From positions 1 through 61,187 of the forward strand of contig JBDRBY010000046.1 in NCBI GenBank assembly GCA_043822245.1: a stretch of 61,187 nucleotides of DNA, written 5' to 3'. The translations under genes and the position numbers were made by a program. A model generated the notes under the pieces. That model searched no databases, was not told the DNA's origin, and saw only the letters and a program-made list of their open reading frames with translations. Of the stretch, positions 567-61,187 are shown in pieces; the first letter of the stretch is position 1; each line of letters begins with the position of its first letter. Source of the DNA: Candidatus Omnitrophota bacterium (GTDB lineage Bacteria > Omnitrophota > Gorgyraeia > Tantalellales > Tantalellaceae).

Positions 567-676
567 TAATTCGGGGGACACAATACTTAATTTTGGTGCG
601 AGAAAGAATAACTAATTAAGTATTGTGTCCCCCGAATTACATAAGTATTGTGTCCCCCGAATTACACCCCGAATTA
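567..676. repeat. long palindrome (CGGGGGACA..TTAATT family) plus extra half-copies
   Basis: The 26-bp arms 567-592 (TAATTCGGGGGACACAATACTTAATT) and 614-639 are exact reverse complements. Partial extra arms lie at 642-664 and 667-676. A related palindrome is at 9420-9494. Confidence 0.85.
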
Positions 677-711
677 CACCAGCTTATTCATAACATCCGG
701 CAGATGGGATT

Positions 712-18251: not shown

Positions 18252-18460
18252 TTTCCCTTCTCTTTTTTGAAAAAAGGGCAGATCTTTTCCACCCTTTTGA
18301 AAAAGCGTCAGAACTTTTCTTCTTTGAAAAAGCGTCAGAACTTTTCGTCTTTGAAAAAGCGTCAGAACTTTCCTTCTTTGAAAAAGCGTCAGAACTTTTC
18401 TTCTTTGAAAAAGCGTCAGAACTTTCCCCCCTTTGAAAAAGGGGGCCAGGGGGATTTAAT
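18252..18460 (+). repeat. FEKG-type element: 27-bp tandem array plus (+) cap
   Basis: About 5 copies of TTTGAAAAAGCGTCAGAACTTTTCTTC plus 2 degenerate units. Ends in CCCCCCTTTGAAAAAGGGGGCCAGGGGGATTTAAT. Confidence 0.9.
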
Positions 18461-18534
18461 ACAAGATGAACTGTAAAATGAATCTGAAATCAAATGCATA
18501 TCGATTGTGGAGAGAAATGACAAAATCCCCCTAA
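18461..18534 (+). pseudogene. DUF559 5' remnant fused to a (-) cap
   Basis: The mini-ORF 18466-18534 reads MNCKMNLKSNAYRLWREMTKSP*. Compare the intact DUF559 N-terminus MLNYKPNLKSKAQQLRKEMTDS: 12 of 20 aligned residues match with a one-codon gap. It has the same ACA[AC]GATG junction after the (+) cap and the same TCCCCCTAA stop inside the (-) cap. Confidence 0.6.
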
Positions 18535-18553
18535 CCCCCTTTTCCAAAGGGGG
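18523..18553 (-). repeat. (-) cap of FEKG-type element
   Basis: AAAATCCCCCTAACCCCCTTTTCCAAAGGGGG is the reverse complement of the (+) cap consensus. Confidence 0.85.
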
Positions 18554-27693: not shown

Positions 27694-27728
27694 AAAAAAT
27701 CCCCCTACCCCCTTTTTCAAAGTGGGGG
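27694..27728 (-). repeat. solo (-) cap of FEKG-type element
   Basis: AAAAAATCCCCCTACCCCCTTTTTCAAAGTGGGGG. Confidence 0.8.
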
Positions 27729-30240: not shown

Positions 30241-30443
30241 GGATACAAAATTGTTTCCCCCCTTTGAAAAAGGGGGAAAAAGGTAAGTTTCTTTATCGTT
30301 TCCACTTTGTGAAAAAGGGGGAAAAAGGTAAGTTTCTTTATCGTTTCCACTTTGTGAAAAAGGGCGCAAAATTGTTTACTTCTTTTGAAAAAGGATACAA
30401 AATTGTTTCCCCCCTTTGAAAAAGGGGGATAGGGGGATTTAAC
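30241..30443 (+). repeat. FEKG-type element: mixed 31/45-bp units plus (+) cap
   Basis: GGATACAAAATTGTTTCCCCCCTTTGAAAAA units at both ends. Two 45-bp units (period 30271 to 30316). Ends in GGGGGATAGGGGGATTTAAC. Confidence 0.9.
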
Positions 30444-30482
30444 GCGCGAGCCGTCACGAAGAAAAAACAGCCAACATCGAAA

Positions 30483-30569
30483 GAGGGCTACGGAGTGGAC
30501 ATAGAAGCAAATTTTGCGGATATAAGTTCAGAAATGAAAATGATTTGTAAGGTGGTGGAGAGAAAATAA
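30483..30569 (+). pseudogene. DUF559 3' remnant between (+) and (-) caps
   Basis: 30519-30566 matches the 3' end of the intact DUF559 gene at about 35 of 48 nt by eye. Translation ADISSEMKMICKVVERK* compares with RDTDSVMEVIYKVVEGKIKSP*. It is joined to the (-) cap in the same way. Confidence 0.6.
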
Positions 30570-30650
30570 ATCCCCCTAGCCCCCTTTTTCAAAGGGGGGA
30601 AAAGATAAGCCTTTTTTCAAAAGGGGGAGAAAGATAAGCTTTTTCAAGGG
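30568..30650 (-). repeat. (-) cap plus 2 array units
   Basis: AAATCCCCCTAGCCCCCTTTTTCAAAGGGGGG AAAAGATAAGCCTTTTTTCAAAAGGGGGAG AAAGATAAGCTTTTTCAAGGG. Confidence 0.85.
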
Positions 30651-33486: not shown

Positions 33487-33524
33487 TTCTCCCTTTGAAA
33501 AAGGGAGTTTAAGAGGGATTTAAC
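33487..33524 (+). repeat. variant (+) cap
   Basis: TTCTCCCTTTGAAAAAGGGAGTTTAAGAGGGATTTAAC. A (-) cap follows 12 nt later. Confidence 0.8.
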
Positions 33525-33536
33525 GGGTATTTAAAC

Positions 33537-33706
33537 AAAAATCCCCCTAACCCCCTTTTTCAAAGGGGGGAGCAACGAAGCCCTTTTTCAAAGGGGGGAG
33601 CAACGAAGCCCTTTTTCAAAGGGGGGAGCAACGAAGCCCTTTTTCAAAGGGGGGAGCAACGAAGTCCTTTTTCAAAGGGGGGAGCAACGAAGTCCTTTTT
33701 TTCAGG
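33537..33706 (-). repeat. (-) cap plus 28-bp tandem array
   Basis: AAAAATCCCCCTAACCCC, then 5 copies of CTTTTTCAAAGGGGGGAGCAACGAAG[CT]C plus a degenerate unit. Confidence 0.9.
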
Positions 33707-38717: not shown

Positions 38718-38793
38718 GGAATAGAAATTCCCTTTCTTCTGAAAAAGGAATAGGAAATTCCCCCCTTTGAAAAAGGGGGCTAGGGGGATTTAA
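38718..38793 (+). repeat. FEKG-type element: 2 units plus (+) cap
   Basis: GGAATAGAAATTCCCTTTCTTCTGAAAAA GGAATAGGAAATTCCCCCCTTTGAAAAAGGGGGCTAGGGGGATTTAA. Confidence 0.9.
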
Positions 38794-48772: not shown

Positions 48773-49549
48773 ATGTCCTACAAAGTAAAACTTAACATTT
48801 TTGAGGGGCCGTTAGATCTTCTGCTGTTTCTTATCAAAAAAGAAAAAATTGATATTTATGATATTCCTATCGCTTCGGTTACTGATCAGTATTTGGAATA
48901 TATGAATTTGATAAAACTCCTGGATTTGGATATTGCCGGTGAATTTCTTGTAATGGCCGCGACTTTGATACATATAAAAAGCAAAATGCTTCTGCCTCAG
49001 GACGAAGTTGTTGAGGAAGAAGAAGAGCGGGATCCCAGGGAAGAGCTTATCGAGAGGCTCCTCGAATATAAGAAATATAAGGACGCGGCTGAAAAATTAA
49101 AGGATTTGAAGGAAAGAAATAAAGATATATTTTTCAGGCAGGTTCCCCCTGATAAAACTTCGATAATAGCCGAAGACGGAACAGAGTATTTTCAGGCGAG
49201 TTTGTTTGAACTCATTACCGCTTTCAAAGGGGTACTTAAGAAAGTTCAAAAAAAATCTGTTCATAGAGTCACGAAAAATAGATTTACTGTTGAGGATAAG
49301 ATTCACGCGGTGTATCATATTTTCGCGAAGCAGGAAAAAATTTATTTTTTATCGTTATTTCAGCAAGCTGAAGATAAAGATGAGGCAATAGTTATATTCC
49401 TGGCGGTATTAGAGCTCATAAAAAGGAGAGAAGTGCTTATCGCCCAAAAAGGCCTTTTTGAAGAAATTGAAATTATTAGAAATCCGGAATTGGTCCATAG
49501 TCTGGCGTATAGCGTTAGCGAGGAAAGGAACCCCGTTTCCCCCCTTTGA
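48773..49549 (+). CDS. scpA: segregation and condensation protein A
   Basis: FEGPLDLLLFLIKKEKIDIYDIPIA..TDQYL is the ScpA signature N-terminus. The last ~9 codons and stop lie in the repeat array. Confidence 0.9.
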   Translation: MSYKVKLNIFEGPLDLLLFLIKKEKIDIYDIPIASVTDQYLEYMNLIKLLDLDIAGEFLVMAATLIHIKSKMLLPQDEVVEEEEERDPREELIERLLEYKKYKDAAEKLKDLKERNKDIFFRQVPPDKTSIIAEDGTEYFQASLFELITAFKGVLKKVQKKSVHRVTKNRFTVEDKIHAVYHIFAKQEKIYFLSLFQQAEDKDEAIVIFLAVLELIKRREVLIAQKGLFEEIEIIRNPELVHSLAYSVSEERNPVSPL

Positions 49550-49693
49550 AAAAGGAAAGGACCCTGTTCCCCCCTTTGAAAAAGGAAAGGACCCTGTTCC
49601 CCCCTTTGAAAAAGGAAAGGACCCTGTTCCCCCCTTTGAAAAAGGAAAGGACCCTGTTCCCCCCTTTGAAAAAGGGGGCTAGGGGGATTTAAT
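49522..49693 (+). repeat. FEKG-type element: 30-bp tandem array (5 units) plus (+) cap
   Basis: GGAAAGGACCCTGTTCCCCCCTTTGAAAAA x4 plus one variant. Ends in GGGGGCTAGGGGGATTTAAT. Confidence 0.9.
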
Positions 49694-49781
49694 CCAAGCA
49701 TCCCCCATCGCTTCGCGAATCAAAGTGCCGGGGGCGGCAAAGCAGTTTTATTAATAGTCAAAATATTAACACGGTGCCCAT

Positions 49782-50330
49782 ATGCAAAACGTAGACAAAA
49801 TAAAAAACATAATTGAAGCTCTTCTTATTATCTCAGAGGACGGATTAAGCGCCGAAGATTTTAAAAAAGCGGTGCCTGATTCCGATATCAGCGACATTGA
49901 GGAAGGGATTCATCTTTTAAAAAATGAGTACGCCCTTCCCGCGCGGGCGTTTAATCTCGCGGAAATAGCCGGAAAGTATCGAATAGTGACTAAACCGGAA
50001 TATATGCCGTGGATAGATAACCTGTATCAAAAAGAAAAAGACAGATTAACCCTACCTGCTTTAGAAACCCTGGCTATTATCGCTTATAATCAGTCTATCA
50101 CACGTGCTGAGATTGAAAATGTCAGGGGAGTTAATTCAGGGGGGGTGATTAAGACGATTTTAGAAAAAGAACTTATCGAGATAAAAGGCAGAAGAGACAT
50201 AGCGGGACGGCCTCTTATGTATGGAGTTACTGAAAAATTTTTGAAAATATTCGGACTAAATTCCCTAAGTGACCTGCCGTCATTGAAGGATTTTAAAGAG
50301 GACGAATTGGAATTTGTAGCGGGGGGTTAA
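49782..50330 (+). CDS. scpB: segregation and condensation protein B
   Basis: IIEALL.ISE..L, LETLAIIAY.QSITRAEIE.VRGV and GRP..YGVT..FL..FGL; 182 aa. Confidence 0.9.
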   Translation: MQNVDKIKNIIEALLIISEDGLSAEDFKKAVPDSDISDIEEGIHLLKNEYALPARAFNLAEIAGKYRIVTKPEYMPWIDNLYQKEKDRLTLPALETLAIIAYNQSITRAEIENVRGVNSGGVIKTILEKELIEIKGRRDIAGRPLMYGVTEKFLKIFGLNSLSDLPSLKDFKEDELEFVAGG

Positions 50331-50344
50331 TGGTTTACGCGTTC

Positions 50345-50443
50345 AAAAATCCCCCTAGCCCCCTTTTTCAAAGGGGGGACAAAATTGAAAGAGGAAAGGA
50401 ACCCGTTCCCCCCTTTGGAAAAAGGGGGCTAGGGGGATTTAAT
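50345..50443. repeat. complete FEKG-type element: (-) cap, one unit, (+) cap
   Basis: AAAAATCCCCCTAGCCCCCTTTTTCAAAGGGGGG ... GGAAAGGAACCCGTTCCCCCCTTTGGAAAAAGGGGGCTAGGGGGATTTAAT, with ~32-bp terminal inverted repeats. Confidence 0.9.
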
Positions 50444-50492
50444 AAAGACAGCCAAAGTTCCCCCACAACCGCGGTTTAAACAGGAGCTAAGA

Positions 50493-51566
50493 ATGGATTC
50501 AAAAAAAATAACCAATTTCAGAAAAGAAATCAATAAACTGGATTCTCTTATAACTGACTTGATTAATAAAAGGGGCAAGGTTAGCCTTAACATTGGTGAA
50601 CTCAAAAAAAGTAAAAACCAGCCGGTTTACAGACCTGAGAGGGAAAGCCAGGTTTACAACCAGGTTACTAGAAAAAATCAGGGGCCTTTAACCGATGAAT
50701 CCATAAGGGCGGTATACCGTGAAATTATGTCAGCATGCCTTTCTTTGGAACACCCCCTAACGATCGCGTTTTTAGGCCCTGAACTTACTTTCACACAGCA
50801 GGCCGCTTTAAAAAAATTCGGTTCAAGTGTAAACTATCTTGCCTGCGATAATATTCCTGAAGTTTTTAGCGAAGTAGAAAAGGAAAATGCCGAGTATGGA
50901 GTAGTGCCTATAGAAAATTCTACCGAAGGTGCGGTTAACCACACTATGGATGTGTTTGTCGATTCTCCGCTTATGATTTGTTCTGAAATTTATTATCCAA
51001 TCAAGCACAGCCTGCTGAGCAAAAACAAAACTCTAAAATCCATTAAAAAGGTTTATTCCAATCCGCATGTTTTTGGGCAGTGCCGCTGGTGGCTTGAAAA
51101 GAATTTACCTTTCGCGGAGCTTTGTGACGTTGCCTCAACCGTTAAGGCGGCCGAGATAGTGTCCAAGATTTCAGATTCAGCCTGTATAGCGAGTGAACTC
51201 GCGGCAAAAAAATATCTGCTCAAGGTTTTGGCCAGGTCAATAGAAGATTCGCCTATCAATGAAACCCGGTTTCTTGTTGTGGGAAAACAAATGAGTAAAA
51301 TTTCAGGCAGGGACAAGACTTCTATACTTTTTTCAGTGAAGGACAAACCTGGAATCCTGCATGATGTACTGAGCCCTTTTAAAAAAGGTGGCATTAACCT
51401 GACAAAAATCGAATCCAGGCCGCTAAAAAAGAAAGCCTGGAAATATTACTTTTTTATCGATATGGAAGGGCACTATGAAACGCCCAAAATTAAAAAAGCG
51501 TTAAGTCAATTAGAAAAGAAATGTTATTTCCTAAAAATTTTGGGATCATATCCTAACGGAAGATAG
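50493..51566 (+). CDS. pheA: bifunctional chorismate mutase / prephenate dehydratase (P-protein)
   Basis: N-terminal CM (LRKEINKLDSLI..LINKR), PDT (IAFLGPELTFTQQAA; VPIENSTEGAV; TRFLVV) and ACT (TSILFSVKDKPGILHDVL). Confidence 0.9.
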   Translation: MDSKKITNFRKEINKLDSLITDLINKRGKVSLNIGELKKSKNQPVYRPERESQVYNQVTRKNQGPLTDESIRAVYREIMSACLSLEHPLTIAFLGPELTFTQQAALKKFGSSVNYLACDNIPEVFSEVEKENAEYGVVPIENSTEGAVNHTMDVFVDSPLMICSEIYYPIKHSLLSKNKTLKSIKKVYSNPHVFGQCRWWLEKNLPFAELCDVASTVKAAEIVSKISDSACIASELAAKKYLLKVLARSIEDSPINETRFLVVGKQMSKISGRDKTSILFSVKDKPGILHDVLSPFKKGGINLTKIESRPLKKKAWKYYFFIDMEGHYETPKIKKALSQLEKKCYFLKILGSYPNGR

Positions 51567-51575
51567 AAGTTAGAA

Positions 51576-51630
51576 GAAAAAGGAAGGAACCCATTCCCCC
51601 CTTTGAAAAAGGGGGCTAGGGGGATTTAAT
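51576..51630 (+). repeat. FEKG-type element: one unit plus (+) cap
   Basis: GAAAAAGGAAGGAACCCATTCCCCCCTTTGAAAAAGGGGGCTAGGGGGATTTAAT. An unrelated 9-bp-stem hairpin GACACATTT..AAATGTGTC follows at 51631-51661. Confidence 0.9.
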
Positions 51631-51763
51631 GACACATTTAAGGTATTACCTCAAATGTGTCAGAATGAAAAATTAAAAAACACAATTAAAAATCTAAAAA
51701 TTGATTTTTAATTTTAAATTGTAACTTTACATTTTTCATTTTTAATTGTACATTTACAAAACC

Positions 51764-52852
51764 ATGTGCAAAAAACATCTAAACAACATAAAACCGTACA
51801 AGCAGGGTAAACCCATTGAAGAAGTAAAACGCGAACTTGGGCTTAAAAAGGTTATAAAACTCGCTTCAAATGAAAGCCCCCGCCCTCCTTCAAAAAAAAC
51901 AATAGAGGCGATTAAGAAGCAGGCCGCGTCAGTAAACCGATACCCGGATGGGGGGTGTTTTTATCTCAGAGAGGCTTTGAGCAAGAAACTCTCTATTCCT
52001 GGAGACAATATTGTTTTTGGAAACGGGTCTGATGAGATTATTATCTTAGCGCTTCAAGCCTTCGTTAAGCCCGGTGACGAAGTTATTACGGCAAATCCCA
52101 CGTTTCTTGTTTACGGCATAGCCTCTATGGTAAAAGGCGCGCGGGTCCGCGAAGTTCCCCTGAAAAATTACAAATACGATCTTGAAGCCATGCTTAAGGC
52201 TGTTACCCGAAGGACCAGGGTTGTATTTATTGCCAATCCCGATAATCCCACAGGGACATATGTGACAAAAAAAGAATTGGATTTGTTTTTAAAAAATGTT
52301 CCGCGGGATATACTCGTTTTTATTGATGAAGCATATTATGAATTCGCGAGGGGCGGCGATTATCCTGAAACTTTGAGCCTGATTAAAACAGGAAACCGTA
52401 ACATTATAATCGCGAGGACTTTTTCTAAAGCCTACGGCCTTGCCGGATTAAGAATCGGCTACGGCCTCGCGGGGAAAGATATAGCTGATATCCTAAACAA
52501 GGTGAGAGAACCGTTTAATGTGAATTCTCTCGCGCAGACAGCGGCAATCGCGGCTCTGAGTGACGATTCTTACATGGAAGAGACGATAAAATTTATCAAG
52601 GAAGAAAAGGAAAAATATTGCGGTGTATTTAAATCATTAAACGTGGGATATCTTCCAAGTAAAGCTAATTTCATTCTTATAAACACAAAAAGGGATTCAA
52701 AAGAAATTTTTAACCGTCTCCTCGCGAAAGGAATTATCGTGCGGGAAATGTCGGAGTGGGGGCTCGATGGATTTATAAGAGTAACCATAGGCCTCCCGGA
52801 TGAGAATAAAGCGTTTTTTAAGGCGTTTAGAGAGATTGTTGCCAAAGTGTGA
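51764..52852 (+). CDS. hisC: histidinol-phosphate / aromatic aminotransferase (class II)
   Basis: LASNESP, GNGSDE, PDNPTG and FSKAYGLAGLRIGY (PLP lysine). ATG 51764 is preferred over TTG 51746. Confidence 0.85.
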   Translation: MCKKHLNNIKPYKQGKPIEEVKRELGLKKVIKLASNESPRPPSKKTIEAIKKQAASVNRYPDGGCFYLREALSKKLSIPGDNIVFGNGSDEIIILALQAFVKPGDEVITANPTFLVYGIASMVKGARVREVPLKNYKYDLEAMLKAVTRRTRVVFIANPDNPTGTYVTKKELDLFLKNVPRDILVFIDEAYYEFARGGDYPETLSLIKTGNRNIIIARTFSKAYGLAGLRIGYGLAGKDIADILNKVREPFNVNSLAQTAAIAALSDDSYMEETIKFIKEEKEKYCGVFKSLNVGYLPSKANFILINTKRDSKEIFNRLLAKGIIVREMSEWGLDGFIRVTIGLPDENKAFFKAFREIVAKV

Positions 52853-52854
52853 GG

Positions 52855-53130
52855 AAAAAATCCCCCTAACCCCCTTTTTCAAAGGGGGGACAGAATTGAA
52901 AAAGGAGTGGAAACATTTCCCTTCCACTCTTTGAAAAAGGAGTGGAAACATTTCACTTTTACCATTTGAAAAAGGAGTGTAAACATTTTCCTTCCACTCT
53001 TTGAAAAAGGAGTGTAAACATTTTCCTTCCACTCTTTGAAAAAGGAGTGTAAACATTTTCCTTCCACTCTTTGAAAAAGGAGTGTAAACATTTCCCCCCT
53101 TTGAAAAAGGGGGGCGAGGGGGGATTTAAC
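52855..53130. repeat. complete FEKG-type element, 35-bp units x6
   Basis: (-) cap, ACAGAATTGAAAAA, GGAGTG[GT]AAACATTT..CCACTCTTTGAAAAA units, then (+) cap CCCCCCTTTGAAAAAGGGGGGCGAGGGGGGATTTAAC. Confidence 0.9.
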
Positions 53131-53135
53131 ACACG

Positions 53136-53504
53136 ATGTTAAATTACAAACCAAACTTAAAATCAAAGGCTCAGCAATTACGAAAAGAAATGACCGACAG
53201 TGAAAGAAAACTATGGTCAAGATTGAGAGGAAAGCAAATTTTAGATGTTCAATTTTACCGGCAGAAGCCCATTGGAAATTATGTCGTGGATTTTTACGCG
53301 TCCAAAGTGAAAATAGTGGTTGAAGTGGATGGATCTGGGCACATGGAGGAAGGGCAGGCGCTAAAGGATGCACCACGAGATGAATATTTAAAACGTCAGG
53401 GATTAGATGTGTTACGTTTTGATAATTTGCAGGTTTTGCGGGATACGGATTCGGTAATGGAAGTGATTTATAAGGTGGTGGAAGGGAAGATTAAATCCCC
53501 CTAA
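53136..53504 (+). CDS. DUF559 (Vsr-like / PD-(D/E)XK-type) endonuclease domain protein
   Basis: LRKEMTDSERKLWSRLRGKQILDVQFYRQKPIGNYVVDFYASKVKIVVEVDGSGH....D..RDEYLKRQGLDVLRFDN matches the DUF559 pattern (LR.nmT.aE..LW..LR....kFrRQ.piG.YivDFyc...klviElDG..H). 122 aa. Confidence 0.9.
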   Translation: MLNYKPNLKSKAQQLRKEMTDSERKLWSRLRGKQILDVQFYRQKPIGNYVVDFYASKVKIVVEVDGSGHMEEGQALKDAPRDEYLKRQGLDVLRFDNLQVLRDTDSVMEVIYKVVEGKIKSP

Positions 53505-53660
53505 CCCCCTTTTTCAAAGGGGGGACAGAATTGAAAAAGGAGTGGAAACATTTCACTTTTACCATTTGAAAAAGGAGTGTAAACATTTTCCTTCCACTCT
53601 TTGAAAAAGGAGTGTAAACATTTCCCCCCTTTGAAAAAGGGGGGCGAGGGGGGATTTAAC
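53491..53660. repeat. complete FEKG-type element, 35-bp units x3 (paralogue of 52855-53130)
   Basis: Same caps, same linker and same unit types as the left copy. Its first 14 nt encode the last 4 codons and stop of DUF559. Confidence 0.9.
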
Positions 53661-53697
53661 TCCCCCCTCCCTAAAAAAAAACAACACAGGAGAAATT

Positions 53698-54714
53698 ATG
53701 ATTATCGTTCTGAAATCTTCCGCTACTAAAAAACAGATAAGCCACATTATAGAAAAGATAGAAAAACTGGGGCTTAAGCCATGGTTGTCCTGTGGCGTGG
53801 AACGTTCAATTATCGGCGTAATTGGAGAAGAACAGGTTGTAAGGACTCTGCCGCTTGAGGGATTCCCAGGGGTAGAAAAGGTTATGACAATTCTTAAGCC
53901 GTACAAACTGGCGTCTCTTGATTATAAAAGCACTCCCAGTGAAATAAAAATAGCAGATGGCGTGACTATTGGCGGCAAAAAAATAGTTGTCATGGCCGGC
54001 CCGTGTTCTGTTGAGAACAGAGCGATGCTGATGGAAACGGCCGAAGAAGTAAAAAAATCCGGAGCTGTATTTTTAAGAGGCGGCGCGTTTAAGCCAAGAA
54101 CAAGCCCGTATAGTTTTCAAGGTCTGGGGGAGGAAGGCCTGAAATATTTGAGGGAAGCCGGAAAAAAAACAGGCCTTCTTGTTGTGACGGAACTAATGGA
54201 TATTCGTATGCTTGGAATGATGGTTAAATACGCGGACATCATACAGGTAGGCGCGCGTAATATGCAAAATTTTGATCTTTTAAAAGAACTCGGCAAGATA
54301 AGAAAACCCGTGCTTTTAAAAAGAGGAATAGCCAACACTATAAATGAATTTCTTATGAGCGCTGAATACATTCTCGCGGGCGGGAACGACAACGTGATTT
54401 TGTGTGAACGTGGCATCCGGACCTTTGAAACTTTTACCAGATTCACGCTTGATTTAAACGCTGTCGCCGCCATAAAAAGTTTAAGCCATCTTCCTATTAT
54501 CGTTGATCCGTCTCATGGGACAGGCAGGTGGAATTTAGTGCTTCCGGCGGCCTTAGCCGCGGTTGCTTCCGGTGCCGACGGGCTTATGATAGAGGTCCAT
54601 CCTAATCCGGAAGAAGCGTTTTCCGACGGGGATCAATCGTTGCTCCCGGCTAAGTTCGCGAAACTGATGGAAGGCGTAAAAACCGTCGCGAAAGCAGTTG
54701 GGAGGACAGTTTAA
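53698..54714 (+). CDS. aroF: 3-deoxy-7-phosphoheptulonate (DAHP) synthase, type I-beta with N-terminal regulatory domain
   Basis: MIIVLK...I..I..KI...G (ferredoxin-like N-domain), then [41 protein letters not shown] and DPSHG motifs. 338 aa. Confidence 0.9.
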
Positions 54715-54850
54715 TAATCCCCCTAACCCCCTTTTTCAAAGGGGGGAAAGAACTGAGATAAAGAGGAAAGGGCGAGAAGTTTCCCCACTTTGAAAAAGGA
54801 AATGGACCCGTTTCCACCCTTTGAAAAAGGGTGGCTAGGGGGGATTTAAT
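54715..54850. repeat. complete FEKG-type element: (-) cap, 2-3 units, (+) cap
   Basis: TAATAATCCCCCTAACCCCCTTTTTCAAAGGGGGG ... GGAAATGGACCCGTTTCCACCCTTTGAAAAAGGGTGGCTAGGGGGGATTTAAT. Confidence 0.9.
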
Positions 54851-60729: not shown

Positions 60730-61187
60730 AAACTGGAGAGTTTGATCCTGGCTCAGAACGAACGCTGGCGGCGTGGATTAGGCATGCAAGTCGAACGATC
60801 CCTTTCTTTGAGGGGGATAGTGGCAAACGGGTGAGTAACGCGTGAGTAATTTACCTTTGGGTTTGGAACAACCTGTCGAAAGGCAGGCTAATACCGGATA
60901 AGACCACAATTCCTAAGGAATTGCGGTTAAAGGTGGGGATCCTGAAAATGGACCTATCGCCCATTGATGAGCTCGCGTCCTATCAGCTTGTTGGTGAGGT
61001 AAAAGCTTACCAAGGCGATGACGGGTAGCTGGTCTGAGAGGATGGTCAGCCACACTGGGACTGAGACACTGCCCAGACTCCTACGGGAGGCTGCAGTCGA
61101 GAATCTTTTGCAATGCCCGAAAGGGTGACAATGCGACGCCGCGTGAGCGATGAAGGCCTTCGGGTTGTAAAGCTCTGTCAGCTCGGA
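60730..61187 (+). rRNA. rrs: 16S ribosomal RNA, 5' ~460 nt (truncated by window edge)
   Basis: AGAGTTTGATCCTGGCTCAG (27F site) at 60737-60756, ...GGCGGCGTGGATTAGGCATGCAAGTCGAACG, and ACTCCTACGGGAGGCTGCAGTCGAGAATCTTTTGCAATG (the 341-360 region). Confidence 0.97.

What the first reader, a model, noticed from the sequence alone, without database searches (positions are those of the whole stretch)
52855..53660. Intact DUF559 nuclease gene packaged exactly between inverted repeat caps, flanked by duplicated elements (REPtron-like, different nuclease family)
The 122-aa DUF559 ORF (53136-53504) starts 5 nt after a (+) cap (...GGGGGGATTTAAC, ending 53130). Its last four codons and TAA stop lie inside the inverted (-) cap (TTAAATCCCCCTAA, from 53491). 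The two flanking elements are direct paralogues. They have the same caps, the same ACAGAATTGAAAAA linker and the same 35-bp unit GGAGTG[GT]AAACATTT..CCACTCTTTGAAAAA. I see that unit nowhere else in the window, and the copies differ only in unit number (6 vs 3). A small nuclease gene bracketed by inverted hairpin repeats, with relatives scattered through intergenic DNA, matches the geometry of REPtrons (a RAYT tyrosine transposase flanked by inverted REPs). Here the protein is instead a Vsr/PD-(D/E)XK-like DUF559. I know of no described link between DUF559 and an intergenic repeat family. The hypothesis is that DUF559 binds or nicks the cap hairpin and drives spread or maintenance of the elements.
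Basis: partly seen in the sequence, partly recalled or inferred. Interest (0 to 1): 0.88.

Follow-up and report, generated by a model that had tools for sequence, protein, structure and literature searches.

The report
Nuclease gene capped by hairpin repeats
A tiny gene for a DNA-cutting enzyme of unknown role (DUF559) sits between two mirror-image hairpin repeats, and the same gene-plus-repeat package turns up in many bacterial phyla, so it looks like a very small, undescribed selfish DNA element that also seeds repeats between genes.

Summary
The 122-aa ORF 53136-53504 is a DUF559/Vsr-like nuclease (Pfam E 6e-36). It lies between an upstream cap (hairpin C6TTT-GAA-AAAG6, short linker, G6ATTT) and the inverted cap, which holds its last codons and stop. 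Whole cap doublets flank it as direct repeats.

The link between gene and caps holds well beyond this locus:
- The window holds two more cap pairs that enclose decayed DUF559 relics.
- Of 82 relatives (52-74% identical) from about ten phyla, 80 have a correctly oriented cap next to the gene and 52 have both. Shuffled DNA and 80 control loci have none.
- Caps stay about 84% identical where synonymous sites are saturated.
- A second DUF559 clade carries its own cap sequence in the same layout.
- Syntenic relatives have only 15-100 nt between hisC and aroF, so the block is an insertion.
- One MAG has five copies at unrelated sites, each with 5-bp target duplications in a hairpin loop.
- dN/dS is 0.05-0.25 between genomes but about 1 among within-genome copies.

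Best reading: a roughly 460-bp selfish cassette whose nuclease acts on its own caps. It resembles a homing endonuclease and has REPtron-like geometry, but it is not a REPtron. The enzymology is untested. I found no prior description.

The parts
52858..53130 (+). Left cap doublet ('E'). It consists of the (-)cap 52858-52889, the linker ACAGAATTGAAAAA 52890-52903, about six 35-nt units from 52904 to 53093, and the (+)cap 53094-53127 followed by AAC.
53094..53130 (+). (+)cap directly upstream of the gene. It has a 9-bp-stem hairpin CCCCCCTTT-GAA-AAAGGGGGG, the linker CGA, and GGGGGGATTTAAC. Its G-run lies 8-14 nt before the ATG and may serve as the ribosome-binding site.
   Evidence: DNA hairpin -9.6 kcal/mol. 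The same motif sits upstream of 64 of 82 relatives.
53136..53504 (+). DUF559 (Vsr-like PD-(D/E)XK) nuclease gene, 122 aa. The last four codons and the stop lie inside the (-)cap.
53491..53524 (+). (-)cap, the inverted copy of the (+)cap: TTAAATCCCCC-TAA-CCCCCTTTTTCAAAGGGGGG. It supplies the codons K-S-P and the stop.
   Evidence: The same motif sits at or over the stop codon of 68 of 82 relatives.
53493..53660 (+). Right cap doublet ('E'), a direct paralogue of the left one. It has the same linker (53525-53538) and the same 35-nt unit in about three copies, then the (+)cap 53624-53657 followed by AAC.
   Evidence: the shorter spacer is 94% identical to the left one
53646..53669 (+). Hairpin GAGGGGGG-ATTTAACT-CCCCCCTC at the outer end of the right doublet. 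It may be an unsplit version of the G6ATTT / AAATC6 pair that brackets the gene. This is inference.
   Evidence: I24, I25
18427..18553 (+). Cap pair enclosing a DUF559 relic. The first ~20 codons (MNCKMNLKSNAYRLWREMT) are fused directly to KSP-stop in the (-)cap. A tandem array of 27-nt units lies upstream at 18296-18441.
   Evidence: tblastn E 2e-5 to 4e-4; blastn with caps excluded, E 1e-4
30410..30598 (+). Cap pair enclosing a DUF559 relic with large internal deletions. The 3' end (..MKMICKVVERK-stop) is retained. Arrays lie on both sides at 30265-30426 and 30585-30644.
   Evidence: 30512-30559 is 80% identical to gene nt 299-347, E 1e-5
33489..33570 (+). Degenerate (+)cap and intact (-)cap facing each other with a 17-nt spacer between GATTT and AAATC and no gene. 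This is a gene-less form. It is followed by a 28-nt array at 33553-33700.
   Evidence: Equivalent gene-less pairs occur in L019, L024, L028, L045, L056 and L064.
50347..50440 (+). Stand-alone cap doublet between scpB and pheA. As single-stranded DNA it folds into one long hairpin.
   Evidence: -37.5 kcal/mol, z -7.3
54716..54847 (+). Stand-alone cap doublet between aroF and tyrA. Its (-)cap starts 2 nt after the aroF stop.
49521..49690 (+). Array of five 30-nt units ending in a solitary (+)cap.
38718..38791 (+). Two 28-nt units and a solitary (+)cap.
51585..51627 (+). Solitary (+)cap between pheA and hisC.
27697..27728 (+). Solitary, slightly degenerate (-)cap.

Best explanation
The unit (+)cap - DUF559 gene - (-)cap, about 430-470 bp, is a compact selfish DNA cassette.

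**What I infer.** The Vsr-like nuclease recognises its own caps. Each cap is a G/C-rich interrupted palindrome plus a G6ATTT motif, which is the kind of site a dimeric PD-(D/E)XK enzyme reads. Cutting at or next to caps elsewhere starts host repair or recombination that copies the gene between caps, as a free-standing homing-endonuclease gene would be copied. In this model the split G6ATTT...AAATC6 pair around the gene is the disrupted target.

**What the cassette leaves behind.** Gene-less derivatives stay in intergenic DNA. These are internally deleted cap pairs, outward-facing cap doublets ('E', which look like REPINs), solitary caps, and tandem arrays made by slippage at the hairpin. In the window the cassette has landed in the short hisC|aroF spacer and is flanked by two copies of one doublet. 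That arrangement arose either by duplication of a pre-existing doublet or by insertion at the junction of two doublets.

**Shown:** the architecture, its conservation, the insertion, multiple copies, decay, and selection on both protein and caps.

**Inferred:** that the protein binds or cuts caps, and how copying occurs.
For: - **Specific, conserved association.** Among 82 independent loci found by protein similarity only (Omnitrophota, Desulfobacterota, Gamma- and Betaproteobacteria, Nitrospirota, NC10, Chloroflexota, Gemmatimonadota, WOR-3 and one archaeal MAG), 52 have both caps, 28 have one and 2 have none by the scan. There are 0 caps in 406 kb of shuffled sequence. The cap ends a median 15.5 nt before the ATG, and the (-)cap starts at or before the stop.
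- **Negative control.** 80 loci (about 370 kb) fetched by AroF similarity hold 0 caps. The flanks of DUF559 loci hold 0.16 per kb.
- **Caps are constrained DNA.** They are 84% identical between loci, while synonymous sites of the adjacent gene are saturated (pS 0.4-0.9).
- **Protein clade and cap co-vary.** Clade B (42% identical) has CCTTCCCCCC-TTGC-GGGGGAAGG + TTAGGAT + GGGGGG upstream and the inverse downstream. This shows as the tails TPHLNPPPQGGRR and the N-extensions GGRLGWG in dozens of proteins.
- **Mobility.**
  - Syntenic hisC-aroF relatives have 15-100 nt where the window has 845 nt.
  - One MAG has five copies with unrelated flanks.
  - Six loci show 5-bp direct repeats, differing between sites, in the loop of a CCCTCCCCC/GGGGGAGGG hairpin.
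  - Most homologues sit on contigs of about 0.5-1.5 kb, as repeats do.
- **Life cycle typical of selfish genes.** dN/dS is 0.05-0.25 between genomes and 0.6-2.4 among near-identical within-genome copies. Relics and gene-less cap pairs occur in the window and in six other loci.
- **The enzyme is plausible.**
  - The model has pLDDT 88.7.
  - The best structural matches are 3hrl (DUF559) and then the catalytic domain of the homing endonuclease I-Bth0305I (E 1.5e-4, TM 0.77).
  - D52, E63, D65, H69, R81, D82 and R94 are invariant in 31 sequences.
  - A DUF559 protein causes DNA damage in vivo in Caulobacter (PMC12907096).
- **No other mobility gene lies inside the cassette**.
Against: - No biochemical or genetic test was possible. 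Recognition of caps by the protein is inferred from co-conservation alone.
- A 120-aa hydrolytic nuclease cannot itself join DNA strands.
- The 5-bp target duplications flank an extra 20-nt TIR (GGGCATAAGCGCTAACTTAA) outside the caps. That fits a DDE-type transposase acting in trans at least as well.
- No target duplication is visible directly outside the caps.
- No unoccupied site from a close sister genome was obtained. The nearest syntenic relatives are only 64-70% identical in AroF.
- Most cap-bearing spacers in the window (6 or 7 of 10) hold no DUF559 trace.
- The window's copy carries Gly at a nearly invariant Gln next to the catalytic His, so it may be inactive.
- In Deinococcus proteolyticus the hairpin and the G-run are arranged the other way round relative to the gene.
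- The cassette is almost absent from phage and plasmid collections, so the route between phyla is unknown.
Confidence: 0.55

Rival explanations
1. The cassette is a passenger. The cap-bounded unit, or a larger TIR-bounded unit that contains it, is moved in trans by a conventional transposase or recombinase encoded elsewhere, as MITEs are. DUF559 is cargo. It could be a solitary restriction-like or defence nuclease, or an addiction function that makes the element hard to lose.
For: - A 20-nt outer TIR with 5-bp target duplications occurs in six loci.
- Other lineage-specific outer inverted repeats surround the cassette in L008, L013, L029, L043, L068 and L082.
- Hydrolytic PD-(D/E)XK nucleases are not known to carry out strand transfer (established knowledge). 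TnsA needs TnsB; it appears as a weak structural match.
- Restriction-modification genes flanked by inverted repeats and by long direct repeats, with no transposase, have been described (PMC2853133).
Against: - The outer TIRs differ between lineages or are absent, as in the window. The caps are the part conserved across about ten phyla, at fixed distance from the start and stop codons.
- Caps co-vary with the protein clade, which is not expected for arbitrary cargo.
- No transposase was seen within 1.5-3 kb in the five loci that have gene calls.
Confidence: 0.22
2. The system is a domesticated host function. Either DUF559 is a Vsr-type mismatch nickase working with a cytosine methyltransferase, or it is a RAYT-like housekeeping enzyme that manages host REP-like hairpins. 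In both cases the caps are chiefly expression, terminator or mRNA-stability signals.
For: - The fold is related to Vsr.
- A Caulobacter DUF559-domain protein behaves as a Vsr-like enzyme linked to the methyltransferase ScmA (PMC12907096).
- In the window, cap doublets start 2-17 nt after the stop codons of same-strand operon genes, as REP/BIME elements do.
- There is strong long-term purifying selection.
Against: - No methyltransferase lies next to the gene in the window or in five annotated loci.
- The cassette is multi-copy, sits at unrelated sites, and decays.
- Selection is relaxed among within-genome copies.
- The same caps and 52-74% identical proteins are spread patchily over about ten phyla, unlike vertically inherited housekeeping genes.
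- No promoter-like site and only one terminator-like site (on the minus strand, within the chance expectation of 1.7) were found in 52700-53800.
- Syntenic relatives do without the block.
Confidence: 0.12
3. The cassette is a phase-variable invertible switch. The inverted caps are substrates for inversion of the gene segment, turning DUF559 expression on and off.
For: - CDSs annotated 'DUF559 domain-containing protein' (odds ratio 14.3) and 'endonuclease domain-containing protein' (9.6) are enriched among predicted programmed-inversion targets (PMC9881135).
- Inverted arms of 21-35 nt flank a 365-nt segment.
Against: - No recombinase lies nearby.
- The start and stop are built into the caps, so the cassette is symmetric under inversion and inversion would change nothing locally.
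- That enrichment is equally expected from the cap architecture described here.
- Inversion does not explain relics, doublets, insertions or cross-phylum sharing.
Confidence: 0.04
4. The adjacency is a coincidence. Cap doublets populate nearly every spacer of this operon, so any small gene there would be flanked by them.
For: - In the window, scpB, hisC and aroF are also preceded by a (+)cap and followed by a (-)cap.
Against: - 80 of 82 relatives in other genomes, in unrelated contexts, show the same flanking at fixed short distances.
- Relics lie inside other cap pairs.
- 80 control loci have no caps.
Confidence: 0.02

Closest known systems
REP / REPIN sequences with their RAYT (TnpA-REP) gene; 'REPtron' (Bertels & Rainey 2011, PMC3116915; PMC5581495; PMC8266576)
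   Same: - A family of short G/C-rich palindromic intergenic repeats exists.
- Inverted doublets of the repeat fold into long hairpins.
- A small nuclease gene is flanked by the repeats in inverted orientation.
- The repeat sequence co-varies with the protein clade.
- Repeats far outnumber genes.
   Different: - The protein is a Vsr-like PD-(D/E)XK hydrolase (DUF559), not a HUH/Y1 enzyme.
- The caps abut the start codon and contain the stop codon.
- The gene is multi-copy and decays in place. RAYTs are typically single-copy and vertically inherited.
- One cap sequence is shared across about ten phyla, whereas REPs are lineage-specific.
Free-standing and intron-borne homing endonuclease genes, especially the Vsr-like I-Bth0305I family (PDB 3r3p)
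   Same: - The catalytic fold is the same (Foldseek E 1.5e-4, TM 0.77).
- The gene is a small selfish nuclease gene with no strand-transfer enzyme.
- A split palindrome surrounds the gene, as expected for a disrupted target.
- Selection shows a cycle of invasion and decay.
- The distribution is patchy and consistent with horizontal transfer.
   Different: - The gene is not in an intron, an intein or a conserved host gene. The presumed target is itself a dispersed repeat.
- The gene carries about 33-nt terminal inverted repeats.
- No homing has been shown.
- The EDxHD motif of that family was not examined.
Insertion sequences and their MITE derivatives
   Same: - Terminal inverted repeats are present.
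- Internally deleted gene-less derivatives exist (cap pairs 7-200 nt apart).
- There are several copies per genome.
- 5-bp target duplications occur around an outer TIR layer in some lineages.
   Different: - There is no DDE, HUH, serine or tyrosine transposase.
- At about 460 bp it is smaller than any known autonomous IS (from memory, the smallest are about 700 bp).
- No target duplication lies directly outside the caps.
Mobile forms of restriction-modification genes: insertion with long target duplication, and R-M genes flanked by inverted repeats (Furuta, Abe & Kobayashi 2010, PMC2853133)
   Same: [quoted passage not shown]
- In other cases they are flanked by long (46-420 bp) direct repeats of the target. 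The window's gene lies between two copies of a 170-270-bp doublet, and 7 of 8 such loci share locus-specific spacers.
   Different: - There is no methyltransferase partner.
- The repeats are members of a dispersed, conserved family rather than unique target sequence.
Integron gene cassettes (ORF + attC)
   Same: - A compact, apparently promoterless ORF is bounded by imperfect palindromes.
- In the window, the ATTTAAC at the end of the (+)cap happens to fit the RYYYAAC core of attC. I recall that consensus from memory.
   Different: - The 'AAC' is not conserved in other loci.
- The neighbouring genes are a conserved aromatic amino-acid operon that exists without caps in relatives.
- The elements are scattered rather than in an array.
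- No integrase is nearby in the loci that have gene calls.
Small dispersed repeats / nested MITE-like elements of cyanobacteria (Elhai et al. 2008, recalled from memory, not read here)
   Same: - Very short palindromic elements are nested inside one another's hairpins.
- The mechanism is unknown.
   Different: - As far as I recall, no associated protein was proposed there. Here a specific nuclease gene sits at the centre.

Membership tests
DUF559 (PF04480), Vsr-like branch of the PD-(D/E)XK nucleases | Profile match above the curated threshold over the whole domain | tested here: met
   E 5.9e-36, 123.1 bits against a cut-off of 20.6; residues 8-115 match profile positions 3-108 of 109
DUF559 (PF04480), Vsr-like branch of the PD-(D/E)XK nucleases | Restriction-endonuclease-like alpha/beta fold closest to solved DUF559 and Vsr-type structures | tested here: met
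   AlphaFold model with pLDDT 88.7. Foldseek matches: 3hrl E 2e-6 (TMt 0.87), 3r3p E 1.5e-4, 1vsr and 1cw0 weaker. HMM against PDB: 3hrl E 5e-26.
DUF559 (PF04480), Vsr-like branch of the PD-(D/E)XK nucleases | Conserved acidic and His residues (hhDF ... EhDGxxH ... RD) | tested here: met
   D52, E63, D65, H69, R81, D82 and R94 are invariant in 31 sequences and present in the window's protein. Q68, conserved in at least 90%, is Gly in the window.
DUF559 (PF04480), Vsr-like branch of the PD-(D/E)XK nucleases | Nuclease activity | not testable with these tools
   The only indirect evidence is that a Caulobacter DUF559-domain protein triggers the SOS response (PMC12907096).
REPtron (REP/REPIN + RAYT) | Gene encodes a HUH/Y1 REP-associated tyrosine transposase | tested here: not met
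   The Pfam scan finds only DUF559 and weaker related nuclease families. The fold is Vsr-like.
REPtron (REP/REPIN + RAYT) | Gene flanked by the repeats in inverted orientation | tested here: met
REPtron (REP/REPIN + RAYT) | Repeats dispersed in intergenic DNA in many more copies than the gene, often as inverted doublets | tested here: met
   In 61 kb there are 15-23 caps in 10 spacers against 1 gene and 2 relics. Doublets fold as long hairpins. A whole-genome count was not possible.
REPtron (REP/REPIN + RAYT) | Single-copy, vertically inherited gene with lineage-specific repeats | tested here: not met
   One MAG has five copies, there are relics, and the same caps occur in about ten phyla.
Homing endonuclease gene | Nuclease of a fold used by known homing endonucleases | tested here: met
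   The I-Bth0305I catalytic domain is the second-best structural match.
Homing endonuclease gene | Gene interrupts its own recognition site, and the intact site exists in gene-less alleles | tested here: inconclusive
   The gene splits a G6ATTT / AAATC6 palindrome. Gene-less cap pairs exist with 7-44 nt between the caps, but several contain gene relics and so may be deletions rather than virgin targets. No allelic empty site was found.
Homing endonuclease gene | Cleavage of the target and copying by repair | not testable with these tools
   -
Insertion sequence / MITE | Terminal inverted repeats | tested here: met
   The arms are about 33 nt and 76-100% complementary.
Insertion sequence / MITE | Short target-site duplication at the ends | tested here: inconclusive
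   None is visible outside the caps in the window or in most loci. A 5-bp duplication occurs outside an additional 20-nt TIR in L027, L036, L039, L042, L046 and L084.
Insertion sequence / MITE | Encodes a transposase of a known class (autonomous members) | tested here: not met
   DUF559 is the only ORF in the cassette.
Integron gene cassette | attC with conserved R/L core sites, array next to intI | tested here: not met
   The core-like ATTTAAC is not conserved across loci. The elements are scattered in a conserved operon. The window was not scanned for intI.

The most novel reading that the evidence does not exclude
Small stand-alone DUF559 proteins, part of a family of more than 40,000 clusters at 50% identity, may be the enzymes of a previously unrecognised class of minimal mobile elements. 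Each such element would be a roughly 460-bp nuclease gene whose start and stop are built into cognate hairpin terminal repeats.

In this reading the nuclease cuts its own palindromic caps, and host repair spreads the gene within genomes and across phyla. Its debris would be a major source of REP-like intergenic hairpins, doublets and tandem arrays in many uncultured and cultured bacteria. That would make it the smallest autonomous-like mobile element known in prokaryotes and a second, independent origin of a REP/RAYT-type relationship.
Probability: 0.4. Interest if true: 0.88.

Novelty: new variant of a known kind. Interest (0 to 1): 0.8.

Why it matters
- **A testable function for DUF559.** DUF559 is one of the large 'unknown function' families: 41,205 clusters at 50% identity match this clade's profile. 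It is usually annotated only as 'endonuclease domain-containing' or, misleadingly, as 'very-short-patch-repair endonuclease'. If these genes are the engines, or at least the constant companions, of a hairpin-repeat family, the family gains a testable function and a defined DNA substrate.
- **A candidate source for REP-like repeats.** Many genomes have REP-like intergenic repeats but no RAYT. This cassette is a candidate origin for them.
- **Annotation and assembly.** The cassette explains recurrent ORF tails such as KSPLTPFFKGG, NPPSPLFQRG and TPHLNPPPQGGRR. It also explains why these genes sit on tiny contigs.
- **A small sequence-specific nuclease.** A ~120-aa enzyme with a ~30-bp cognate site could be of practical interest.
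- **Experiments are feasible.** Cultured hosts carrying the same clade appear among the loci: Methylomicrobium sp. wino1, Thiobacillus denitrificans RG, Nitrosomonas supralitoralis and Geomonas propionica.

Tried and rejected
- **Rfam scan of the window.** No known RNA family covers the caps; the only match is the start of a 16S rRNA at 60730.
- **Promoter and terminator scan of 52700-53800.** No sigma-70-like site was found, and only one terminator-like site on the minus strand, within chance. 'Caps are ordinary expression signals' is therefore not supported.
- **Exact-sequence look-ups.** The window's DUF559 returned only a 669-nt contig. The window's AroF is not on record. No strain-level presence/absence comparison was possible.
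- **Metagenome scan with AroF.** The closest syntenic relatives are only 64-70% identical. They show a short ancestral spacer but not a precise empty site.
- **Phage, plasmid and viral collections.**
  - Plasmid and phage records hold only relatives of 45% identity or less.
  - 2.9 million viral contigs hold one 52%-identical relative.
  - No vector was identified.
- **Integron-cassette reading.** Rejected: the core motif is not conserved, the host operon is conserved without caps, and there is no array.
- **Target duplication directly outside the caps or around the gene.** None is consistent. TTAA-like matches cannot be told apart from the inverted repeat itself.
- **Concerted evolution of the two caps of one element.** They are only marginally more alike (86%) than caps of different elements (84%), so this is uninformative.
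- **Literature.** No paper links DUF559 to a repeat family. The nearest is a table in PMC9881135 listing DUF559 CDSs as enriched among predicted inversion targets.
- **Motif AAWTTTTGACAATAC downstream of two elements.** 4 hits against 1 expected. This is not significant, and the sites are probably host promoters.
Full report
**1.

The ORF 53136-53504 (+) encodes 122 aa and matches Pfam DUF559 (PF04480) at E 5.9e-36, covering positions 3-108 of the 109-position profile.

- Upstream lies CCCCCCTTTGAAAAAGGGGGG-CGA-GGGGGGATTTAAC (53094-53130), which ends 5 nt before the ATG.
- Downstream, TTAAATCCCCC-TAA-CCCCCTTTTTCAAAGGGGGG (53491-53524) is its inverted copy. It contains the last four codons (I-K-S-P) and the stop.
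- Outside each of these 'caps' the sequence continues as a whole element: (-)cap, the linker ACAGAATTGAAAAA, 35-nt units and a (+)cap. The left element spans 52858-53130 and the right one 53493-53660. TRF counts 5.7 units on the left and 2.7 on the right.
- The 35-nt unit occurs nowhere else in the window.
- The cap core has 23 matches in the window against none in 100 shuffles.

**2.

Caps occur in ten intergenic spacers, and none lies inside a long ORF. They come in four arrangements.

- *Caps facing each other, like those around the gene.*
  - The pair at 18427-18553 encloses MNCKMNLKSNAYRLWREMT fused to KSP-stop.
  - The pair at 30410-30598 encloses ..MKMICKVVERK-stop.
  - With the caps removed from the queries, these interiors still match DUF559 genes. 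18475-18524 matches L005 at 76% over 50 nt (E 1e-4). 30512-30559 matches the window's own gene at 80% over 49 nt (E 1e-5). Both are decayed copies of the same cassette.
  - A third pair at 33489-33570 has a 17-nt spacer between its GATTT and AAATC motifs.
- *Outward-facing doublets, (-)cap..spacer..(+)cap, which I call E.* These are at 50347-50440, 54716-54847 and the two that flank the gene. As single-stranded DNA such a doublet folds into one long hairpin (-37.5 kcal/mol, z -7.3), like a REPIN.
- *Solitary caps.* These are at 27697, 38761, 49660 and 51597.
- *Tandem arrays next to caps.* Their units of 27-45 nt differ from locus to locus, but each contains part of the cap hairpin.

In the gene row scpB-pheA-hisC-DUF559-aroF-tyrA, doublets start 2-17 nt after stop codons. 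Judged from the window alone, the flanking of DUF559 would therefore not be specific. Specificity has to come from elsewhere.

**3. The protein**

- A profile of 31 relatives finds PDB 3hrl, a Neisseria gonorrhoeae DUF559 of unknown function, at E 5e-26.
- An AlphaFold model (pLDDT 88.7) is closest to 3hrl (E 2e-6). Next comes the catalytic domain of the homing endonuclease I-Bth0305I (3r3p, E 1.5e-4, TM 0.77). Weaker matches include PvuRts1I/AbaSI, the R2 element endonuclease, TnsA and E. coli Vsr.
- D52, E63, D65, H69, R81, D82 and R94 are invariant. The window's copy has Gly at the nearly invariant Gln68, next to His69.
- Between genomes dN/dS is 0.05-0.25. Among four near-identical copies inside one MAG it is 0.6-2.4, though on few substitutions. 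Selection therefore acts on the protein over the long term but hardly on individual resident copies. This pattern is expected for a selfish element.
- The profile matches 41,205 clusters at 50% identity. Of these, 262 score below 1e-30, which is the close clade.

**4. The gene-cap link is general**

A scan of one genome per species, using protein patterns only, gave 80 loci at 52-74% identity. They come from Omnitrophota, Desulfobacterota, Gamma- and Betaproteobacteria, Nitrospirota, NC10, Chloroflexota, Gemmatimonadota, WOR-3 and a Methanosarcinales MAG. Two more loci came from exact look-ups.

- Read by eye, almost all show C5-6TTT-N2-5-AAAG5-6, 2-6 nt, G5-6ATTT upstream of the ATG and the inverse over the stop.
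- A tolerant pattern scan finds both caps in 52 of 82 loci, one in 28 and none in 2. By eye, those last two still carry degenerate pieces.
- The same scan finds nothing in 406 kb of shuffled sequence.
- The upstream cap ends a median 15.5 nt before the ATG. The downstream cap starts at or before the stop.
- Spacing between facing caps has a sharp peak at 342-480 nt (about 55 loci). It also has a tail of relics (65-199 nt) and gene-less pairs (7-44 nt).
- As a control, 80 metagenomic loci (about 370 kb) chosen by AroF similarity contain no cap at all. The flanks of DUF559 loci, more than 300 nt from the gene, hold 0.16 per kb.
- Caps are 84% identical between loci, although synonymous sites of the adjacent gene are saturated. 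The caps are therefore constrained DNA, not scars.
- Many database proteins carry translated caps. C-terminal tails include KSPQPPFSKGE and NPPSPLFQRG. N-terminal extensions include MKKGGRGIY.
- Most homologues lie on contigs of about 0.5-1.5 kb, as repeated DNA does.

**5. Cap sequence follows protein clade**

A second DUF559 gene in L059 is 42% identical. It represents a large clade (7,985 hits) whose members end in TPHLNPPPQGGRR and sometimes begin with ..GGRLGWG.

At the DNA level this clade has CCTTCCCCCC-TTGC-GGGGGAAGG + TTAGGAT + GGGGGG directly before the ATG. The inverse, CCCCCCA-CCTTAAT-CCTCCCCC-GCAA-GGGGGGAGG, follows the gene. The layout is the same (hairpin, linker, then a G-run next to the gene) but the sequence is different.

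Two more distant DUF559 genes also have repeats:
- The gene on Deinococcus proteolyticus pDEIPR03 sits between 56-nt arms that are 95% complementary. There the hairpin is next to the gene and the G-run is distal.
- Neisseria gonorrhoeae NGO0050, the 3hrl protein, lies between 81-nt direct repeats.

**6. Evidence for insertion and mobility**

- Relatives that keep hisC next to aroF (L085, L088, L090, L091, L092) have 15-100 nt between the genes, often with a simple hairpin and no caps. The window has 845 nt there.
- One MAG (MFD10007.bin.3.145) has five copies with unrelated flanks.
- In those copies and in L027, the cassette is wrapped in a further 20-nt inverted repeat, GGGCATAAGCGCTAACTTAA. 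That repeat is flanked by 5-nt direct repeats that differ from site to site (TTGAC, TCGAC, TCCGC, CAAAG, TGGAT). Each lies in the loop of a CCCTCCCCC/GGGGGAGGG hairpin. These are target-site duplications in hairpin loops.
- Other lineages show other outer inverted repeats. The cassette therefore tends to lie at the centre of nested palindromes.
- In 7 of 8 loci where doublets flank the gene on both sides, the two doublets share locus-specific spacers. Examples are 146 nt at 75% identity in L052, about 300 nt at 77% in L041, and the 35-nt units here.
- The gene is thus flanked by long direct repeats. Either a pre-existing doublet was duplicated on insertion, or the gene entered the junction of two tandem doublets. 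Such a junction is exactly a pair of facing caps.

**7. Most likely mechanism**

*Shown:*
- a conserved, compact unit made of caps plus a nuclease gene
- its insertion into short spacers
- multiple copies
- in-place decay to gene-less derivatives
- constraint on both the caps and the protein
- co-variation between cap and protein clade

*Inferred:*
- The nuclease recognises the caps. Each hairpin is an interrupted G/C palindrome of the kind read by dimeric PD-(D/E)XK enzymes. The G6ATTT...AAATC6 pair around the gene looks like a recognition palindrome split by the gene, as with homing-endonuclease genes.
- Breaks or nicks at caps elsewhere are repaired from an occupied copy, using caps or doublets as homology.
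- Slippage at the hairpins gives the arrays.

I put 0.55 on this explanation. I put about 0.85 on the weaker statement that the cassette is a mobile unit, whatever moves it.

**8. Rival explanations**

- *Passenger mobilised in trans (0.22).* The outer TIR with its 5-bp duplications, and the inability of a hydrolytic nuclease to join strands, favour this. The fixed, cross-phylum, clade-specific caps argue that the protein is not arbitrary cargo.
- *Domesticated Vsr-like or REP-managing function (0.12).* A Caulobacter DUF559-domain protein does behave as a Vsr-like enzyme (PMC12907096). Here, however, there is no methyltransferase neighbour. The copies are multiple and decaying, and syntenic relatives lack the block.
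- *Invertible switch (0.04).* DUF559 CDSs are enriched among predicted inversion targets (PMC9881135). The cap architecture explains that enrichment by itself.
- *Coincidence (0.02).* Excluded.

**9. Comparison with known systems**

- *REP/REPIN-RAYT.* The geometry is the same: palindromic repeats, inverted doublets, a flanked nuclease gene, and repeat-protein co-variation. Membership fails on the defining enzyme (HUH/Y1) and on single-copy vertical inheritance.
- *Homing endonuclease genes.* In behaviour and fold this is the nearest match. But the cassette carries terminal inverted repeats, sits in intergenic repeats rather than in a conserved gene or intron, and no intact allelic target has been seen.
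- *IS/MITE.* It has inverted repeats and deletion derivatives like a MITE system, but no transposase.
- *Restriction-modification genes.* These have been reported flanked by inverted repeats, or inserted with long target duplications, without any transposase (PMC2853133). This is the closest precedent for a nuclease gene that moves 'by itself'.
- *Integron cassettes.* Considered and rejected.
- *Literature.* Seven searches found no paper that connects DUF559 with a repeat family.

**10. Limits**

- Nothing here tests binding or cleavage.
- No whole-genome census and no strain-level empty site could be obtained.
- Several of the 82 loci are near-duplicates: L012/L016, L022/L023, L051/L053 and the five copies from one MAG. 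Independent cases number roughly 70.
- The window's own copy may be inactive because of Q68G.
- The host is probably an Omnitrophota bacterium, judged only from the best DUF559 hits. That is weak evidence, because the element moves horizontally.

Noticed in passing
window 49521-54847: In the same-strand gene row scpB-pheA-hisC-(DUF559)-aroF-tyrA, nearly every spacer holds a cap doublet or a cap in one orientation. The (-)cap starts 2-17 nt after the upstream stop codon. Relatives with the same gene order have short spacers, sometimes with a plain hairpin, and no caps.
   Followed up: partly
window 18296-18441, 30265-30426, 30585-30644, 33553-33700, 49521-49675: Tandem arrays of 27-45-nt units (about 2 to 5.4 copies, 77-99% matches) lie directly beside caps. 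Each array has its own unit sequence, but every unit contains part of the cap hairpin (TTTGAAAAAGG or CCTTTTTCAAAGG).
   Followed up: partly
L027, L036, L039, L042, L046, L084 (about 2431-2935 in each): The cassette is enclosed by a 20-nt TIR, GGGCATAAGCGCTAACTTAA. Site-specific 5-bp direct repeats flank that TIR in the loop of a CCCTCCCCC/GGGGGAGGG hairpin. This is clear target-site duplication at five unrelated sites of one MAG and in an NC10 MAG.
   Followed up: partly
L059 480-962; L165, L166, L168-L170 around 1440-1960: A second DUF559 clade, mostly in Chloroflexota and Dehalococcoidia, has its own cap: CCTTCCCCCCTTGCGGGGGAAGG-TTAGGAT-GGGGGG. This produces the recurrent protein tail TPHLNPPPQGGRR.
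   Followed up: partly
L173 1095-1567 (Deinococcus proteolyticus pDEIPR03): An annotated 'endonuclease domain-containing protein' lies between 56-nt arms that are 95% complementary. The hairpin is next to the gene and the C6/G6 runs are distal, which is the opposite order to the window.
   Followed up: no
L171 1025-2000 (Neisseria gonorrhoeae chromosome filed as a plasmid): The DUF559 gene solved as PDB 3hrl (NGO0050) is unannotated in this record. It lies between copies of an 81-nt direct repeat; there are three copies, spaced 614 and 281 nt apart.
   Followed up: no
L056 2188-2344; L045 3031-3063: Gene-less cap pairs of about 95 nt have 15-25 nt between G5ATTT and AAATC5. In L056 there are two tandem copies, and the spacer may retain a trace of the gene's 3' end. 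They look like MITE-type derivatives.
   Followed up: no
L017 2171-3141: A 241-nt inverted repeat (81% complementary) surrounds the cassette. It includes extra copies of caps and of the gene's 3' end.
   Followed up: no
protein P0241: A 377-aa predicted protein has three DUF559 stretches. It may be read-through across tandem cassettes, because caps can lack in-frame stops.
   Followed up: no
window 53337-53339 (codon 68): The window's DUF559 has Gly where at least 90% of relatives have Gln, next to the invariant His69. The copy may already be impaired.
   Followed up: no
window 60730-61187: The 5' 445 nt of a bacterial 16S rRNA gene runs off the end of the window (Rfam RF00177, 398 bits). It could identify the host.
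   Followed up: no
window 617-680: An exact 25-nt tandem duplication, TAAGTATTGTGTCCCCCGAATTACA, unrelated to the caps.
   Followed up: no
L004 3420-3520: Downstream of the (-)cap, before a DHH/CBS/PolyA-polymerase gene, is a stretch (..GGTTCCCTGCCAGGAAAGCGGGAATCCACTG..) that looks to me like a cobalamin riboswitch. It was not scanned.
   Followed up: no
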